Below are positions 7,083-40,482 of a DNA stretch of 40,482 bases, piece after piece. This DNA is from Escherichia phage vB_EcoP-22664UKE3-2. Position 1 is the first letter of the stretch. Each line of letters opens with the position of its first letter. The position numbers and the translations under genes were made by a program. The stretch lies in the sequence record MZ234011.1; one strand, 5' to 3'. The notes below the pieces were generated by a model that had not been told where the DNA came from, ran no database searches, and worked only from the letters and a program-made list of their open reading frames with translations.

Positions 7083-7519
7083 TGCTCAGTGATTCGTATT
7101 TCTATGATGAGTCCAGTAAGTCTGGCCTGAAGTCCCTGCGTTCTGGTAAGGATGTGGGGTGTGTGGGAAACCACGGGTATTATCAGGTAGGAACTCGACG
7201 TCATGGACTCCTGCTGGCCCATAGAGTCGTCTGGGAGCTAACCAACGGTCCTATACCAGAAGGGATGGAGATTGACCATATCGACCGCTGCCGGACTAAC
7301 AACAGGCTGGACAACCTCCGGCTAGTTACTTCAAGCGAGAACTCCTGCAACACCTCAGGACATTCTGACTCAAAGACTGGAGTTAAGAACATATCGTTCC
7401 ATCAGAATGGCTACGCTATCGAGGTCATGCGTAAGGGGGTCCGTATGCGAACAACACGTCCTACTTTAGAGGAGGCTATCTCTGTCCGGGACCTAATGCT
7501 GGAGGGACTCTATGTCTAA
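7079..7519 (+). CDS. HNH homing endonuclease
   Basis: [56 protein letters not shown] is a typical HNH motif; sits between Rz and large terminase where T7 has no gene; overlaps terminase start. Confidence 0.75.
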
Positions 7520-9278
7520 GAAAACACCTGCTGAAAGACAGGCTGAAATGACCCAAAGGATGAGGGACGACTTCGTGTTCTTCATCTTCGTTCTCTGGAA
7601 AGCGCTGAGCCTTCCGGTTCCAACCAGATGTCAGATAGATATGTGTAAGAAGCTGGCTGCTGGCGATAACCGACGCTTCATCCTTCAGGCGTTCCGAGGT
7701 ATTGGCAAATCGTTTCTGACCTGTGGTTTCGTGGTCTGGAAGCTATGGAACAACCCAGACTTGAAGTTCATGATTGTGTCGGCCTCAAAGGAACGAGCCG
7801 ATGCAAACTCCATCTTTATCAAGCGAATCATCGACCTCATGCCTCAGCTTCAGGAACTCAAACCTAAGCAGGGACAGCGAGATGCTGTTATCAGCTTCGA
7901 CGTTGGGCCAGCCAAGCCTGACCACTCACCTTCTGTTAAGTCAGTTGGTATCACTGGTCAGTTGACTGGTAGTCGTGCTGACATACTGATTGCCGATGAC
8001 GTGGAGGTTCCGAACAACTCAGCGACTCAGGCTGCACGAGACCGTCTGTCAGAGCTTGTGAAAGAGTTTGACGCTATCCTGAAGCCGGGAGGTACGATCA
8101 TCTATCTGGGTACTCCTCAGAACGAGATGACCCTGTACCGTGAGCTGGAAGGTCGTGGGTACATCACTACTATCTGGCCCGCTCGTTATCCACGCGATAA
8201 GAAGGACTGGCAGTCTTACGGCGACCGTCTTGCACCGATGCTTCAGGCAGAGCTTGAAGAGGACCCTGAGGCCTTCTACTGGCGTCCGACCGATGAAGTT
8301 CGATTCGACGATACTGACCTGAAGGAACGTGAGCTGTCCTACGGTAAAGCTGGCTTCGCTCTACAGTTCATGCTTAACCCTAACCTGAGTGATGCCGAGA
8401 AGTATCCTCTGAAGCTCCGTGACCTTATCGTAGCAGACTTGGACCCAGCGTCCAGCCCAATGGTCTACCAATGGTTACCGAACCCTCAGAACAAGCGTGA
8501 GGACGTTCCTAACGTTGGACTCATGGGTGACTCGTACCACACGTATCAGACTGTAGGTTCTGCCTTCAGTTCGTACACCCAGAAGATTCTGGTCATAGAC
8601 CCTAGTGGTCGTGGTAAGGATGAAACTGGCTATGCGGTACTATACCAGCTCAACGGCTACATCTTCGCTATGGAAGTTGGTGGCATGCGTGGTGGTTATG
8701 AAGACTCTACGCTGGAAGCCTTGGCTAAGATTGGTCGTAAGTGGAGGGTCAACGAATACGTCATTGAGGGTAACTTCGGTGATGGTATGTACCTTGAGCT
8801 ATTCAAGCCTGTAGCGGCCCGTATCCATCCTGCGGCTGTAACTGAAGTGAAGAGTAAGGGTCAGAAAGAACTACGCATCTGTGACGTTCTGGAGCCTATC
8901 ATGGGGTCTCACAGACTTATCGTTAACGCTGCTGCTATCGTCCAAGACTACCAGACAGCCTCTGACAAGGATGGTGTTCGTAATCCTATCTACTCTCTAT
9001 TCTATCAGATGACACGTATCTCTCGTGAGCGTGGAGCCTTGGCACACGATGACCGACTTGATGCGCTGGCTATCGGTGTACAGTTCTTCGTTGAGTCGAT
9101 GGCTAAGGATGCCAACAAAGGCGAACGTGAAGTCACTGAGGAATGGCTGGAGGAACAGATGGAGAACCCACGGAAAGGCTTCGAGTCCATCCACACTGAG
9201 TTCTGGGACAATGGGGTCCGGGTAACTCACGATACGGACGACGAGCTTGGACTAGGGTCATACGTTACGTTCCACTAG
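7512..9278 (+). CDS. Terminase large subunit (T7 gp19-like)
   Basis: 588 aa, same size and position as T7 gp19; Walker A-like GIGKSF motif near the N-terminus. Confidence 0.95.
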
Positions 9279-9287
9279 CTGAATGAA

Positions 9288-9336
9288 TAACTATAGGCGA
9301 AAACTGAATTAATACGCGGTTAGTAACCTATAGTTA
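9288..9336 (+). promoter_or_regulatory. Inverted repeat TAACTATAGG ... CCTATAGTTA (10-bp arms, 29-nt spacer) downstream of terminase
   Basis: Arms are exact reverse complements; lies in the non-coding right-end region. Confidence 0.5.
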
Positions 9337-9372
9337 CTACCAGTCTAACCTACTGTTTTACAAGGAGTTTGG

Positions 9373-9395
9373 ACTTAACTATCACTATAGGGAAG
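9373..9395 (+). promoter_or_regulatory. Phage RNAP promoter (CTTAACTATCACTATAGGGAAGA), phiOR-like position after gene 19
   Basis: Full match to the promoter core; position corresponds to T7 phiOR. Confidence 0.6.
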
Positions 9396-9573
9396 ACCCC
9401 CGGTTACTTATAGTATTACTGTAGTGAATATACATATGCAGACTTTATGCAAGACCTTAGGAGGCAGACTCCGAGTTCTTACCTAAGGCTTGCACCGATG
9501 GAAGGAGGTGATATTAATCATAATCCCTCCAATACAGATAGTCACCGACCATAGATACAGGAGGTATGTAGCA

Positions 9574-9747
9574 TATGGCAAAGACCAAAGCTGTACTTAA
9601 AGCTCTGGCGACCAATCGAGCTACATACAGGTTTCTTGCTGCTGTTCTACTTGCTGCTGGCGTTACTGCTGGAAGTCAGTGGGTCGGGTGGGTCGGGTGG
9701 GTCGGGTGGGTCGAGACTCTCGTATGTACTCTGGTCTCTCAGTGTAA
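9574..9747 (+). CDS. Small Cys-rich ORF (57 aa) containing an in-frame tandem repeat (VGR x4); possible gene 19.5 analogue
   Basis: Manual translation MAKTKAVLKSSGDQSSYIQVSCCCSTCCWRYCWKSVGRVGRVGRVGRDSRMYSGLSV; RBS CAGGAGG about 10 nt upstream. May be non-coding. Confidence 0.25.
9681..9713 (+). repeat. Tandem repeat, 9-bp unit GGGTCGGGT x ~3.7
   Basis: Directly visible: gggtcgggtgggtcgggtgggtcgggtgggtcg. Confidence 0.85.
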
Positions 9748-9980
9748 TTAACGCAATCATGGTAACGATTCATGAGCGGAAGACCTAAGGTCAGTACGTG
9801 GATAAAGACTCACTCTACTGACCTTAGCTACTGTAGTCAAGGACTTTAGGTAACACCTTAAGAGAAGCTCACTTAGGGTCATCCTACTTATTGGTCTATC
9901 CTAGTGTCGCCTGACCTACGGTCCTTGACCTACAGTGGCTGTGGTCTACAGTAGTGACGATGAGTTTTGGACCAAAAGTT

Positions 9981-10180
9981 TGAGACCACATCTCACAGTT
10001 CAAGAACTTCAAGTCTCCCCCATAGGCCTCTTTCAGTCCAGACCAAAGGCCCTACCCCAGTCTATCATAAGGTTGGACCGATGGTCAAGACTTCAGGTCA
10101 ACGATAGGTTGTGGCTATGGCTTAGGGAAGGACGATAGGTTGGGACTATGGGTCTGTCTTTGAGTCTCTATCTGTATCAG
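9981..10180 (+). repeat. Putative genome left end / terminal-repeat region (approximate boundaries)
   Basis: TCTCACAGT...TCTCCCCCATAGG resembles the T7 left-terminal sequence as I recall it; lies between the phiOR-like promoter and the host-promoter cluster. Confidence 0.35.
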
Positions 10181-10193
10181 ACCTTGAGTCACT

Positions 10194-10257
10194 ACCTACA
10201 GTCTAACTACCTACAGTCATCGACCATCGGTAATGCCGCTACCTACAGTCATCGACC
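10194..10257 (+). repeat. Short direct repeats ACCTACAGTC(ATCGACC) x3, analogous to the T7 end-proximal short repeat arrays
   Basis: ACCTACAGTC at 10194, 10209 and 10241; the last two extend to the 17-mer ACCTACAGTCATCGACC. Confidence 0.6.
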
Positions 10258-39916: not shown

Positions 39917-40482
39917 GGAACGCAAATCCGGGCAATATCCGTAAGTCCAAAGACCAGTGGGAAGGTGCTATAGGCGATGATGGTGCATTCGTTATCTTCG
40001 ACAGTCCTGAATCTGGGGTCCGAGCATTAGCGAAAAACCTTCAAAGCTACGGTCGCCAAGGTTATGACTCTATCGAGAAGATTATCAACAGATGGGCACC
40101 TCCGAGCGAGAACGACACTCAGTCCTACATCGACTCGGTTGTATCTGCTACTGGTATTCCTGCAACTCAAAGTCTCGACCTATCTGACCCTGACACCCTG
40201 TCTTCTCTGGCACAAGCTATCAGCTTCCATGAGACAGGCTCACGGTACGACCCTGAAGTCTATCAGAAGGGAGTCGCACGGGCACTCAACGGCATTAGCC
40301 CAAAGACTCCACCAGTAAGCGCTAACGTATTTGACGCACTCACGGAAGGACTCAAGTCTAAACCTAAAGTAGCTCTGGGTGAGAACCTTCCGACCGCTGC
40401 TGGTCTTAACATTGAGGGTCAAGCACCTGAAGCTCCCAACGAATCGTTCGGTGAGATGTTCTATAAGTCTACTGGCGAGACC
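39898..40482 (+). CDS. Internal virion protein D (gp16), N-terminal 195 aa; continues in frame at window position 1
   Basis: ORF runs off the window end with no stop; its last residues (...FGEMFYKSTGET) and the first residues of the window (MQEREERSTWFGF...) are contiguous relative to T7 gp16 (...WETHGETLDEYNSRSTFFGF). Confidence 0.85.
   Translation, partial: MATRGVRNANPGNIRKSKDQWEGAIGDDGAFVIFDSPESGVRALAKNLQSYGRQGYDSIEKIINRWAPPSENDTQSYIDSVVSATGIPATQSLDLSDPDTLSSLAQAISFHETGSRYDPEVYQKGVARALNGISPKTPPVSANVFDALTEGLKSKPKVALGENLPTAAGLNIEGQAPEAPNESFGEMFYKSTGET

What the first reader, a model, noticed from the sequence alone, without database searches (positions are those of the whole stretch)
9574..9747. 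9-bp tandem repeat (GGGTCGGGT x ~3.7) inside a small Cys-rich ORF downstream of the phiOR-like promoter
The repeat at 9681-9713 is in frame within a 57-aa ORF that has a plausible RBS and encodes VGRVGRVGRVGR preceded by a Cys cluster (CCCSTCCWRYC). In-frame tandem repeats are slippage-prone, so copy number may vary between isolates; alternatively the repeat is a cis-acting DNA element near the genome end.
Basis: seen in the sequence. Interest (0 to 1): 0.5.

Follow-up and report, generated by a model that had tools for sequence, protein, structure and literature searches.

The report
Slippage-expanded repeat in phage gene 19.5
The 9-base repeat is a rare, slippage-made length variant inside gene 19.5, the last small membrane-protein gene of a T7-like phage. 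Following it up showed that this part of the gene appears to be read in a second, shifted reading frame that nobody has described.

Summary
The repeat is real: 9679-9713, period 9, 3.9 perfect copies. The true ORF is 9575-9751, 58 aa, and the "Cys-rich VGRVGR" peptide comes from a frame closed by TAA at 9598-9600.

The window is a permuted Kayfunavirus (K1F-like) genome. The ORF is gene 19.5 (NCBIfam T7_gp19.5, 59 bits against a cut-off of 33). It lies after the terminase gene and the phiOR promoter, 278 bp before the terminal repeat.

All 220 GenBank and 25 IMG/VR relatives carry 2 units. Rare metagenome alleles carry 1 or 3. Only this window carries 4. So this is replication slippage in coding DNA, not a hypervariable locus or a cis element. 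The insertion breaks a spacing held by 59 of 63 family sequences and creates the window's only G-quadruplex motif.

Unexpected result: downstream of a conserved UUU_C in the TYRFL motif, substitutions in Kayfunavirus are synonymous in the +1 frame (24 syn:16 non, P=2e-5), not the annotated frame (9:33). The coding signal runs 12 codons past the annotated stop. The +1 frame is open in all 10 UUU_C clades and in 1 of 9 others. There the repeat encodes a Gly/Ser loop between two hydrophobic helices. Translation of this frame is inferred, not shown.

The parts
9375..9393 (+). phiOR-like phage RNA polymerase promoter that drives gene 19.5
   Evidence: One mismatch to the K1F-type consensus. It is one of 11 such sites in the window against 0.02 expected. 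The homologous sites are annotated as promoter in ASO2B and as phiOR in EcoDS1.
9560..9566 (+). Shine-Dalgarno AGGAGGT, 8 nt before the ATG
   Evidence: Read directly from the sequence. The 9560-9580 bin has only 2 variable columns among 30 relatives, against 10-21 in the flanking bins.
9575..9751 (+). Gene 19.5 in the annotated frame: 58 aa here, 52 aa in relatives
   Evidence: ORF list. phrog_2193 E=1.4e-20. NCBIfam NF040465 T7_gp19.5 59.1 bits against a cut-off of 33. Annotated gp19.5 in EcoDS1 and CR44b.
9632..9635 (+). TTT_C (UUU_C) in the conserved TYRFL motif, the candidate +1 ribosomal frameshift site (inferred)
   Evidence: TTT_C is present in every clade whose +1 frame is open. Clade-level Fisher p=1.2e-4, and TTT is only 20% of Phe codons in this genome. 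UUU_Ynn is described as especially prone to +1 frameshifting in bacteria (PMC5009743).
9633..9788 (+). +1-frame coding stretch (FLLLFYLLLALLLEVSGSGGSGGSGGSRLSYVLWSLSVINAIMVTIHERKT, stop 9786-9788), which overlaps gene 19.5 and runs 37 nt past its stop
   Evidence: Open in all Kayfunavirus relatives. Substitutions are synonymous in this frame, 24:16, P=2e-5. pN/pS is 0.23 against 1.38 for the annotated frame. Codon periodicity continues past the annotated stop and conservation collapses after 9788.
9679..9713 (+). The 9-bp tandem repeat, 3.9 perfect copies. It reads (WVG)n in the annotated frame and a Gly/Ser run (SGSGGSGGSGGS) in the +1 frame, and carries seven GGG tracts
   Evidence: TRF. Allele series of 1, 2, 3 and 4 units. 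It is the only (G3N1-7)x4 motif in the window on either strand.
9991..10169 (.). Terminal repeat of the phage genome, present as a single copy in this permuted assembly (context only)
   Evidence: 95% identical to the annotated 178-bp terminal repeat of EcoDS1.

Best explanation
The array is a slipped-strand expansion of a short direct repeat that relatives carry as two units (GTGGGTCGG-GTGGGTCGA). It lies inside gene 19.5, the last gene of a K1F-like T7-group phage. The gene is transcribed from phiOR and translated from a strong SD/ATG.

Shown:
- The gene identity and the allele series of 1, 2, 3 and 4 units.
- The rarity of every state other than 2 units.
- The invariant length of this part of the protein across the family.

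Because the unit is 9 bp, copy-number changes never break a reading frame. They add or remove three residues.
- In the annotated frame, the window's two extra units add WVGWVG next to the conserved Glu and Cys-pair tail. That lengthens a spacing that is otherwise fixed.
- In the +1 frame, they add six Gly/Ser residues (GGSGGS) to the loop between two hydrophobic helices. Extra length should be easy to tolerate there.

Inferred, about 55% likely: the +1 frame is the one selection acts on here. Ribosomes that start at ATG 9575 slip +1 at UUU_C (9632-9635). They would make a 70-aa product in this phage (64 aa in relatives) with a basic N-terminus, two hydrophobic helices and a basic C-terminus. 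That architecture resembles a small two-helix holin and fits the published T7 genetics that tie gene 19.5 to lysis timing.

Overall, the 4-unit allele is most likely a recent, neutral or mildly harmful length variant of a non-essential gene. It is not a regulatory switch and not a packaging signal.
For: Gene identity. phrog_2193, with T7 gp19.5 in the same family. NCBIfam T7_gp19.5 equivalog above cut-off. Position after the terminase gene and phiOR and before the terminal repeat.

Slippage.
- DNA alleles with 1 unit (L036, L037; 97.6% identical contigs from two samples), 2 units (majority), 3 units (L034, L035) and 4 units (window), all in register.
- 220 of 220 GenBank records have 2 units.
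- The exact 58-aa protein is not on record.
- The copies are perfect, which fits a recent event.

Coding, not a cis element. The gene with its SD is an island of conservation, with 1-3 variable columns per 20 against 10-21 in the flanks. The repeat is lost in the divergent relative L033 and in T7.

Length constraint. The Tyr-to-Cys spacing is 27 residues in 59 of 63 unique family sequences. The only exceptions are the repeat alleles and one frameshifted contig. There are no gaps in that stretch of alignment A2.

+1 frame.
- Open in all 10 UUU_C clade representatives, although synonymous recoding keeps it open with only P=0.03-0.28 each. It is open in 1 of 9 controls, against 0.55 expected.
- Kayfunavirus zone B: annotated frame 9 syn:33 non; +1 frame 24:16, P=2e-5. 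The control clade shows the reverse.
- pN/pS in Kayfunavirus is 1.38 (annotated frame) against 0.23 (+1). In T3-like phages it is 0.74 against 0.20. In the control clade it is 0.23 against 1.17.
- The third-position signal continues in the 10 codons after the annotated stop (5, 2, 9 variable columns of 10 each), and conservation ends at the +1 stop.
- The antisense alternative is excluded by stops in that frame.
- AlphaFold2 gives the +1 peptide as helix-loop-helix, with the repeat as the loop, pLDDT 82.

Literature. T7 gp19.5 is a non-essential, predicted membrane protein tied to lysis timing (PMC2680503; PMC8365609). Its deletion gives small plaques (PMC12153263). It is the most abundant late transcript (PMC6938266).
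Against: - No reads are available, so an assembly or sequencing artefact for the two extra units cannot be excluded. The 4-unit allele is seen only here.
- Nothing shows that the +1 frame is translated. UUU_Y sites on their own usually shift at low efficiency (my recollection, not checked here), and no stimulator was identified.
- In the T7 clade both frames look equally constrained, pN/pS 0.60 and 0.53.
- In the L067 clade the stretch past the annotated stop has no coding periodicity.
- The annotated frame is conserved across the whole family (invariant Cys pair, fixed stop position). It is probably functional too, in which case the insertion may be damaging rather than neutral.
- Sequences within clades are not independent, so the P values are optimistic.
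- The AlphaFold2 run on the +1 peptide used a single sequence, and hydrophobic peptides often give confident helices.
Confidence: 0.8

Rival explanations
1. Only the annotated frame matters. (WVG)n sits at the outer end of the single transmembrane helix of gp19.5, and copy number adaptively tunes helix length and hence lysis timing.
For: - The annotated frame has the strong SD/ATG and a curated family model.
- One TM helix is predicted for the CR44b orthologue (annotation seen).
- T7 mutations A24D and E38G in this protein change lysis time (PMC2680503), and E38G recurred independently (PMC8365609).
- The repeat abuts the homologous Glu.
Against: - Within Kayfunavirus the annotated frame shows no excess of synonymous change in this region (9:33; pN/pS 1.38).
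- Copy number is fixed at 2 in all 220 GenBank and 25 IMG/VR relatives.
- The spacing is invariant across the family. That argues against length being a tuned variable.
Confidence: 0.2
2. The repeat is a cis-acting DNA element for packaging or concatemer processing near the right genome end.
For: It lies between phiOR and the terminal repeat, the region that carries packaging signals in T7 (Pac made of PacB and PacC; PMC9860248). The central part of the gene is unusually conserved at the DNA level.
Against: - The array is 278 bp upstream of the terminal repeat.
- The unit is found nowhere else in the genome.
- It is not conserved in L033 or T7.
- The DNA-level conservation has a three-base periodicity that a second reading frame explains.
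- Viable relatives carry 1, 2 or 3 units.
- No structure beyond chance (z=+0.46).
Confidence: 0.03
3. The expansion matters because it creates a G-quadruplex on the non-template strand and in the mRNA. Seven GGG tracts with 1-2 nt loops would slow phage RNA polymerase or ribosomes downstream of phiOR.
For: It is the only (G3N1-7)x4 motif in 40.5 kb on either strand. The 2-unit allele has only three tracts and no motif, and the 3-unit allele has five. Gene 19.5 is very heavily transcribed late in T7 (PMC6938266).
Against: Shuffled sequence gives about one such motif start per genome, so its presence is not statistically unusual. The motif is a by-product of a unit already fixed for coding reasons. 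Quadruplex formation and any effect are untested. ViennaRNA does not model quadruplexes here.
Confidence: 0.1
4. The two extra units are an assembly or sequencing artefact, and the phage really has 2 units.
For: The 4-unit allele is unique among more than 245 relatives, and the exact protein is absent from a 15-billion-protein collection. Other records of this gene show obvious indel errors (P0033, P0049).
Against: The array is only 35 bp, shorter than any modern read, so collapse or expansion during assembly is unlikely (inference). The insertion is exactly two perfect units. Independent 1- and 3-unit alleles show that the site does slip in nature.
Confidence: 0.07

Closest known systems
T7 gene 19.5 protein (NCBIfam NF040465 T7_gp19.5; phrog_2193)
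   Same: Same family by HMM and the same genome position: last gene, after gene 19 and phiOR. It shares the basic N-terminus, the R-x-T-Y-R-F-L motif, a hydrophobic stretch and a C-terminal Cys pair.
   Different: The window's copy is 58 aa and carries six extra residues in a segment whose length is otherwise invariant. Pfam DUF5465, built on the T7-type C-terminus, hits T7 but does not hit Kayfunavirus proteins.
UUU_Y +1 ribosomal frameshift sites (Yersinia YopN-TyeA; influenza A PA-X UCC_UUU_CGU), as reviewed in PMC5009743
   Same: A UUU_C tetranucleotide sits exactly where the selection signal switches frame. An open, conserved +1 frame lies downstream. UUU is the minority Phe codon in this genome.
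   Different: No trans-frame protein has been observed, and no stimulatory element was identified. Independent initiation at TTG 9636 is not formally excluded, although T3-like phages lack that TTG.
Small two-helix (class II) holins and two-product holin/antiholin genes
   Same: The predicted trans-frame product is 64-70 aa with two hydrophobic helices, a short turn and charged ends. T7 genetics link gene 19.5 to holin-like lysis timing (PMC2680503). One gene would give two membrane products.
   Different: No holin HMM is matched significantly: best E=0.73 for the annotated-frame protein, none at E<=1 among the trans-frame hits, and no Pfam hit. The gene is not next to the lysis genes. The second product would arise by frameshift, not by dual starts. 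No functional data exist.
T7 and T3 gene 10A/10B, two products by -1 frameshifting in the same phage group
   Same: One gene of a T7-group phage yields a second protein with a new C-terminus from another frame (PMC5009743).
   Different: The direction is +1, not -1, and the shift site is of a different type. Here the shifted frame overlaps most of the gene instead of extending it, and it is uncharacterised.
Slippage or recombination between short direct repeats in T7 DNA (my recollection of Pierce, Kong and Masker 1991; not checked here)
   Same: Gain and loss of whole units between 8-9-bp direct repeats gives a 1, 2, 3, 4 allele series in register.
   Different: That work scored deletions in engineered constructs. 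This is a natural in-frame expansion.

Membership tests
T7 gp19.5 family (NF040465 / phrog_2193) | HMM score above the curated cut-off | tested here: met
   NF040465 gives 59.1 bits against a cut-off of 33. The 2-unit allele gives 74 bits and T7 gives 87.5. phrog_2193 E=1.4e-20.
T7 gp19.5 family (NF040465 / phrog_2193) | Position: last gene, downstream of terminase gene 19 and promoter phiOR, upstream of the right terminal repeat | tested here: met
   Terminase gene at 7512-9278, promoter at 9375-9393, terminal repeat at 9991-10169. T7 and EcoDS1 have the same layout.
T7 gp19.5 family (NF040465 / phrog_2193) | Fixed architecture: R-x-T-Y-R-F-L motif, then 27 residues from the Tyr to the first Cys of the C-terminal Cys pair | tested here: not met
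   The motif is present, but the spacing is 33 in the window against 27 in 59 of 63 unique family sequences. The difference is exactly the two extra repeat units. This is an allele-level deviation, not grounds for exclusion.
Pfam DUF5465 (PF17553) | Match to the 19-residue C-terminal model | tested here: not met
   T7 gp19.5 matches at E=6.5e-11. Neither the window protein nor the 2-unit Kayfunavirus protein gives a hit at E<=10.
Programmed +1 ribosomal frameshifting at UUU_Y | Shift-prone UUU_Y tetranucleotide at the frame junction | tested here: met
   TTT_C at 9632-9635, conserved in T7, T3-like, Kayfunavirus and seven other clades. The motif's propensity is taken from PMC5009743.
Programmed +1 ribosomal frameshifting at UUU_Y | Downstream +1 frame open and under purifying selection, more than the overlap alone explains | tested here: met
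   Open in 10 of 10 UUU_C clades against 1 of 9 others, p=1.2e-4. Synonymous excess in +1 of 24:16, P=2e-5. pN/pS 0.23 against 1.38. The signal continues past the annotated stop. It is weaker in the T7 clade.
Programmed +1 ribosomal frameshifting at UUU_Y | Trans-frame protein detected, and frameshift efficiency measured | not testable with these tools
   Needs mass spectrometry, tagged constructs, reporters or Ribo-seq. No paper on a gene 19.5 frameshift was found.
Holins (class II, two transmembrane helices) | Sequence membership in a known holin family | tested here: not met
   Only chance-level PHROG holin hits for the annotated-frame proteins: E=0.73 for the window protein and 0.032 for T7 gp19.5. 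The trans-frame products hit no holin family at E<=1 and no Pfam family.
Holins (class II, two transmembrane helices) | Small protein with two membrane helices, a turn and charged ends, which controls lysis timing | tested here: inconclusive
   The helix-loop-helix comes from a single-sequence AlphaFold2 model, pLDDT 82. The lysis link comes only from T7 genetics on the gene as a whole.
Contingency (phase-variable) simple-sequence loci | Copy number differs frequently among close relatives, and unit length shifts the frame to switch expression | tested here: not met
   2 units in all 220 GenBank and 25 IMG/VR relatives. The unit is 9 bp, so every whole-unit change preserves the frame.
Canonical G-quadruplex motif | Four or more G3 tracts with loops of 1-7 nt | tested here: met
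   Seven tracts between 9681 and 9710. It is the only such motif in the window and is absent from the 2-unit allele. Folding into a quadruplex was not testable.
T7-type packaging or terminal cis elements | Lies in or next to the terminal repeat and is conserved as DNA across relatives | tested here: not met
   278 bp upstream of the terminal repeat. Not conserved in L033 or T7.

The most novel reading that the evidence does not exclude
Gene 19.5 of T7-group phages (T7, T3-like, K1F-like and others) is a dual-coding gene. Ribosomes slip +1 at the UUU_C inside the conserved TYRFL motif. They then make a previously unrecognised protein of about 55-70 aa with two hydrophobic helices, whose C-terminal two-thirds is read in the +1 frame and ends beyond the annotated stop. 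This trans-frame product, rather than or as well as annotated gp19.5, would be the long-suspected second holin-like lysis-timing factor. The tandem repeat then encodes its Gly/Ser inter-helix loop.
Probability: 0.5. Interest if true: 0.8.

Novelty: new member of a known kind. Interest (0 to 1): 0.6.

Why it matters
On its own the repeat is a minor point. It is a rare length allele of a small, non-essential phage gene. It is still useful as a natural test of how much extra length that protein tolerates.

The larger value is what the comparison exposed. T7 is one of the best-studied genomes, yet gene 19.5 is still of unknown function. It is also the most abundant late transcript, it affects plaque size, and it repeatedly turns up in lysis-evolution experiments.

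A conserved second reading frame accessed at UUU_C would:
- add a new recoding event to the T7 group;
- explain why the TYRFL motif is so strongly conserved;
- require the published A24D and E38G mutants to be re-read, because they change both frames;
- give a concrete, testable candidate for the missing holin-like activity.

It also warns that engineered "silent" recoding or deletion of gene 19.5 in synthetic T7 genomes may hit a hidden product.

Tried and rejected
- **tblastn.** The 58-aa protein against the phage collection returned nothing, although 220 records match at the DNA level. Low-complexity masking is the likely cause. I used DNA searches and HMMs instead.
- **Exact-pattern scan.** An IMG/VR scan for three or more units found only two unrelated Gly/Ser-coding contigs.
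- **Synthetic queries.** 1- and 3-unit queries against GenBank gave no gap-free hit.
- **pacB literature.** Searches for pacB and M-hairpin coordinates gave no usable positions.
- **Structure of the annotated-frame protein.** AlphaFold2 with a 17-sequence alignment was low confidence, pLDDT 59.7, and was not used.
- **RNA element.** No Rfam match, no RNA structure beyond shuffles and no terminator-like site in 9280-10200.
- **Protein families.** No Pfam hit for the +1 or trans-frame products, and no significant holin hit in PHROGs.
- **Antisense ORF.** An antisense ORF that shares wobble positions with the +1 frame was considered as the source of the periodicity. It was rejected because that frame carries stops inside the region in T7, T3-like, L067, L072, L088 and L090.
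- **Internal TTG start.** Initiation at TTG 9636 is less likely than frameshifting. T3-like phages have TCG there, and an internal start would not explain the link with TTT rather than TTC.
- **Saturated comparison.** Cross-clade Nei-Gojobori values were saturated, so within-clade analyses replaced them.
Full report
**1. What is in the sequence**

Tandem Repeats Finder reports a perfect period-9 array at 9679-9713, with 3.9 copies, 100% matches and consensus GTGGGTCGG. The 9-mer occurs nowhere else in the 40.5-kb window. The array is therefore real and far beyond chance.

The ORF around it is 9575-9751, 58 aa: MAKTKAVLKALATNRATYRFLAAVLLAAGVTAGSQWVGWVGWVGWVETLVCTLVSQCN. A Shine-Dalgarno AGGAGGT precedes it at 9560-9566, 8 nt before the ATG.

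The quoted peptide (CCCSTCCWRYC...VGRVGRVGRVGR) is the -1/+2 frame, which TAA at 9598-9600 closes. In the annotated frame the repeat reads (WVG)3WV.

**2. Context**

The region matches 221 phage records at 80-99% identity, and every record I opened belongs to Kayfunavirus, the K1F-like genus of Studiervirinae.
- The terminase large subunit gene ends at 9278.
- A K1F-type phage promoter lies at 9375-9393. It is one of 11 in the window against 0.02 expected, and it corresponds to phiOR of EcoDS1.
- The 178-bp terminal repeat of EcoDS1 maps to 9991-10169.

The window is therefore a permuted whole genome with one copy of the terminal repeat. The array lies 278 bp upstream of that repeat.

**3. Identity of the gene**

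- The ORF matches phrog_2193 at E=1.4e-20. T7 gp19.5 falls in the same family at E=4.5e-25.
- It passes the curated NCBIfam equivalog NF040465 "T7_gp19.5" with 59.1 bits against a cut-off of 33. The 2-unit allele scores 74 bits.
- Pfam DUF5465 matches only the T7-type C-terminus.

The literature gives this picture of T7 gp19.5:
- It is non-essential and predicted to span the membrane.
- It acquired A24D and E38G in lysis-recovery evolution experiments, and it was proposed as a second holin-like factor (PMC2680503). E38G recurred independently (PMC8365609).
- Its clean deletion gives small plaques (PMC12153263).
- It is the most abundant T7 transcript late in infection (PMC6938266).

**4. Copy number across relatives**

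Relatives encode a 52-aa protein with WVGWV, which corresponds to two units, GTGGGTCGG-GTGGGTCGA.

| Source | Result |
|---|---|
| GenBank, synthetic 2-unit query | Covers at least 80% of the query in all 220 records; all but two of the 60 listed rows have equal query and record spans, and neither exception lies at the repeat |
| GenBank, synthetic 1-, 3- and 4-unit queries | No gap-free match |
| IMG/VR | All 25 relatives have two units |
| 5.8-billion-cluster protein collection | Rare 55-aa protein with 3 units, on two assemblies identical over 3.3 kb |
| Same collection | Rare 49-aa protein with 1 unit, on two contigs 97.6% identical |

In both rare alleles the DNA confirms whole-unit differences in register. 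The exact 58-aa protein is not on record.

So the site slips, but two units is the overwhelmingly fixed state, and the 4-unit allele is unique to this genome. Other in-frame indels and frameshift variants also occur in this repetitive gene (P0022, P0029, P0030, P0031). Some of these are probably sequencing errors.

**5. Constraint on length**

A profile search of 1.84 billion representatives, together with IMG/VR loci, recovered distant family members. The alignment has no gap between the invariant Arg/Tyr of the TYRFL motif and the first C-terminal Cys.

Across 63 unique sequences, the Tyr-to-Cys distance is 27 residues in 59. The only exceptions are the 1-, 3- and 4-unit alleles (24, 30 and 33 residues) and one frameshifted contig. 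The window's insertion therefore breaks the most rigid feature of the family.

**6. Is it a cis element?**

No.
- The SD plus gene is an island of conservation, with 1-3 variable columns per 20 against 10-21 in the flanking intergenic DNA.
- The repeat itself is lost in the divergent relative L033 (WAGKL) and in T7 (DLSSL).
- The unit is not reused elsewhere.
- The RNA has no structure beyond shuffles, z=+0.46.
- Rfam finds nothing.

**7. An unexpected second frame**

The codon table of relatives showed almost no third-position change from codon 20 onward. First-position changes were frequent instead. Those first positions are the wobble positions of the +1 frame.

That +1 frame is open in every Kayfunavirus sequence, from before the gene to a stop at 9786-9788, which is 37 nt beyond the annotated stop. 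Its peptide is highly conserved...FLLLFYLLLALLLEVSGSGGSRLSYVLW[SC]LSV[IV]NA[IV]MVTI[HN]E...

I split the gene into four zones:
- Zone A: codons up to 19.
- Zone B: codon 21 to the annotated stop.
- Zone C: the annotated stop to the +1 stop.
- Zone D: the sequence after the +1 stop.

*Variable columns by codon position in Kayfunavirus (33 unique sequences)*

| Zone | Position 1 | Position 2 | Position 3 | Columns per position | Positions numbered in |
|---|---|---|---|---|---|
| A | 3 | 1 | 9 | 16 | annotated frame |
| B | 17 | 8 | 9 | 32 | annotated frame |
| C | 5 | 2 | 9 | 10 | +1 frame |
| D | 12 | 11 | 12 | 12 | phase set by the +1 stop (non-coding) |

Position 1 of the annotated frame is position 3 of the +1 frame. 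In zone D almost every column varies.

*Single-site changes against the consensus*

| Clade and zone | Frame | Synonymous | Non-synonymous | P for synonymous excess |
|---|---|---|---|---|
| Kayfunavirus, A | annotated | 13 | 2 | 5e-6 |
| Kayfunavirus, B | annotated | 9 | 33 | 0.84 |
| Kayfunavirus, B | +1 | 24 | 16 | 2e-5 |
| Control (TTC at the motif), B | annotated | 36 | 21 | 3e-8 |
| Control (TTC at the motif), B | +1 | 15 | 41 | not significant |

*Within-clade pN/pS in zone B*

| Clade | Annotated frame | +1 frame |
|---|---|---|
| Kayfunavirus | 1.38 | 0.23 |
| T3-like | 0.74 | 0.20 |
| T7 clade | 0.60 | 0.53 |
| Control | 0.23 | 1.17 |

**8. Link to a shift-prone site**

Across the family, the +1 frame is open past the annotated stop in all clades whose TYRFL motif is encoded ...TTT CTN. 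These are T7, T3-like, Kayfunavirus and seven others. It is open in only 1 of 9 representatives that have TTC or CTC there. Clade-level Fisher p=1.2e-4.

If each protein is randomly recoded with synonymous codons, the +1 frame stays open with P=0.03-0.28. All ten are open, and the controls match expectation.

TTT is the minority Phe codon in this genome, 57 against 230 TTC. UUU_Ynn is described as especially prone to +1 frameshifting in bacteria, and it is the proposed site for YopN-TyeA (PMC5009743).

An antisense ORF that shares wobble positions is excluded by stops in most clades. A PHROG of unknown function, phrog_30163, matches the +1 peptides of T3-like phages (E=2e-19) and of T7 (E=1.5e-8). 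So ORF callers have met this frame before. I found no paper describing it.

**9. What the repeat means under this reading**

In the +1 frame the array encodes SGSGGSGGSGGS. A single-sequence AlphaFold2 model of the +1 peptide gives helix 2-17, loop 18-25 and helix 26-50, with pLDDT 82.

The inferred trans-frame product is MAKTKAVLKALATNRATYRF|LLLFYLLLALLLEVSGSGGSGGSGGSRLSYVLWSLSVINAIMVTIHERKT. It has a basic N-terminus, two hydrophobic helices and a basic C-terminus. That resembles a small two-helix holin, but no holin HMM supports membership.

A Gly/Ser loop should tolerate six extra residues. That offers a reason why such alleles survive, even though they distort the annotated-frame protein.

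**10. Side effect**

The four units create seven GGG tracts with 1-2 nt loops. This is the only canonical G-quadruplex motif on either strand of the window, and it is absent from the 2-unit allele. It lies on the non-template strand of a very highly transcribed gene. Whether it folds or matters is untested.

**11. Verdict**

The repeat, the promoter and the RBS are right. The ORF frame and the peptide are wrong.
The site slips, but variation is rare, and it is not a cis element.
- The array is best explained as a recent two-unit slippage expansion in gene 19.5 (confidence 0.8).
- The more interesting result is comparative evidence for a conserved +1-frame product of gene 19.5 in T7-group phages (about 0.5). 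This is inferred from substitution patterns and ORF conservation only, and it needs direct detection.

Noticed in passing
window 9632-9788 (also T7 locus L008 around 938-1058): A conserved +1 reading frame overlaps gene 19.5 from the TTT_C of the TYRFL motif to a stop 19-37 nt beyond the annotated stop. It carries the purifying-selection signal in Kayfunavirus and T3-like phages and is open only in clades that have TTT_C.
   Followed up: yes
window 9871-9903: A second, imperfect tandem repeat (period 17, 2.1 copies, 83% matches) lies between gene 19.5 and the terminal repeat. T7 is said to carry short repeat arrays beside its terminal repeat in this region (my recollection).
   Followed up: no
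window 9991-10169: The terminal repeat is present once, so the window is a circularly permuted assembly of a linear genome. The physical ends are near 9991 (left) and 10169 (right).
   Followed up: partly
window about 9450-9506 (L001 571-627): A hairpin between phiOR and gene 19.5 is annotated as a rho-independent terminator in phage ASO2B. The simple terminator scan here found none. Its role upstream of such a highly expressed gene is unclear.
   Followed up: partly
L003 and L004, downstream of the position that corresponds to window about 9785: Some relatives (Seyj3-1, FFK3, vB_EcoP_F) are about 80 bp longer across this region. The alignment places the extra columns in the 9760-9780 bin, and their +1 ORFs end one codon early (HEMR, HERR). 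This suggests the insertion sits at about the +1 stop, which would fit that stop being a functional boundary.
   Followed up: partly
P0049 (Enterobacter phage 03_vB_Eclo_IJM) and P0050 (28-kb metagenome contig): These alleles carry a single-base indel early in gene 19.5 that puts the normal ATG directly in phase with the +1 frame, giving a 63-64-aa single ORF. They may be natural 'pre-shifted' genes or sequencing errors. A sister record, P0033, shows compensating frameshifts typical of errors.
   Followed up: partly
P0022, P0029, P0009, P0015 (K1F), P0030, P0031: Other indel alleles occur in the repetitive GCTGCTG... part of the gene: +5 aa (AAVLL duplication), -4 aa, -1 aa, and +1 aa in K1F. 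Two frameshift variants lie at the G-rich repeat, so the whole central part of the gene is slippage-prone.
   Followed up: no
GenBank KX669227 / NC_047777 (phage ZG49), record positions 95-253 and about 39985-40143: The record carries gene 19.5 at both ends, which means about 600 bp of redundancy. This looks like an assembly overlap rather than the true terminal repeat of about 178 bp.
   Followed up: no
T7 gene 19.5 codons 24 and 38 (L008): The published adaptive mutations A24D and E38G also change the +1 frame, to Pro-to-Thr and Ser-to-Gly (my own translation). Their phenotypes therefore cannot be assigned to the annotated protein alone.
   Followed up: partly
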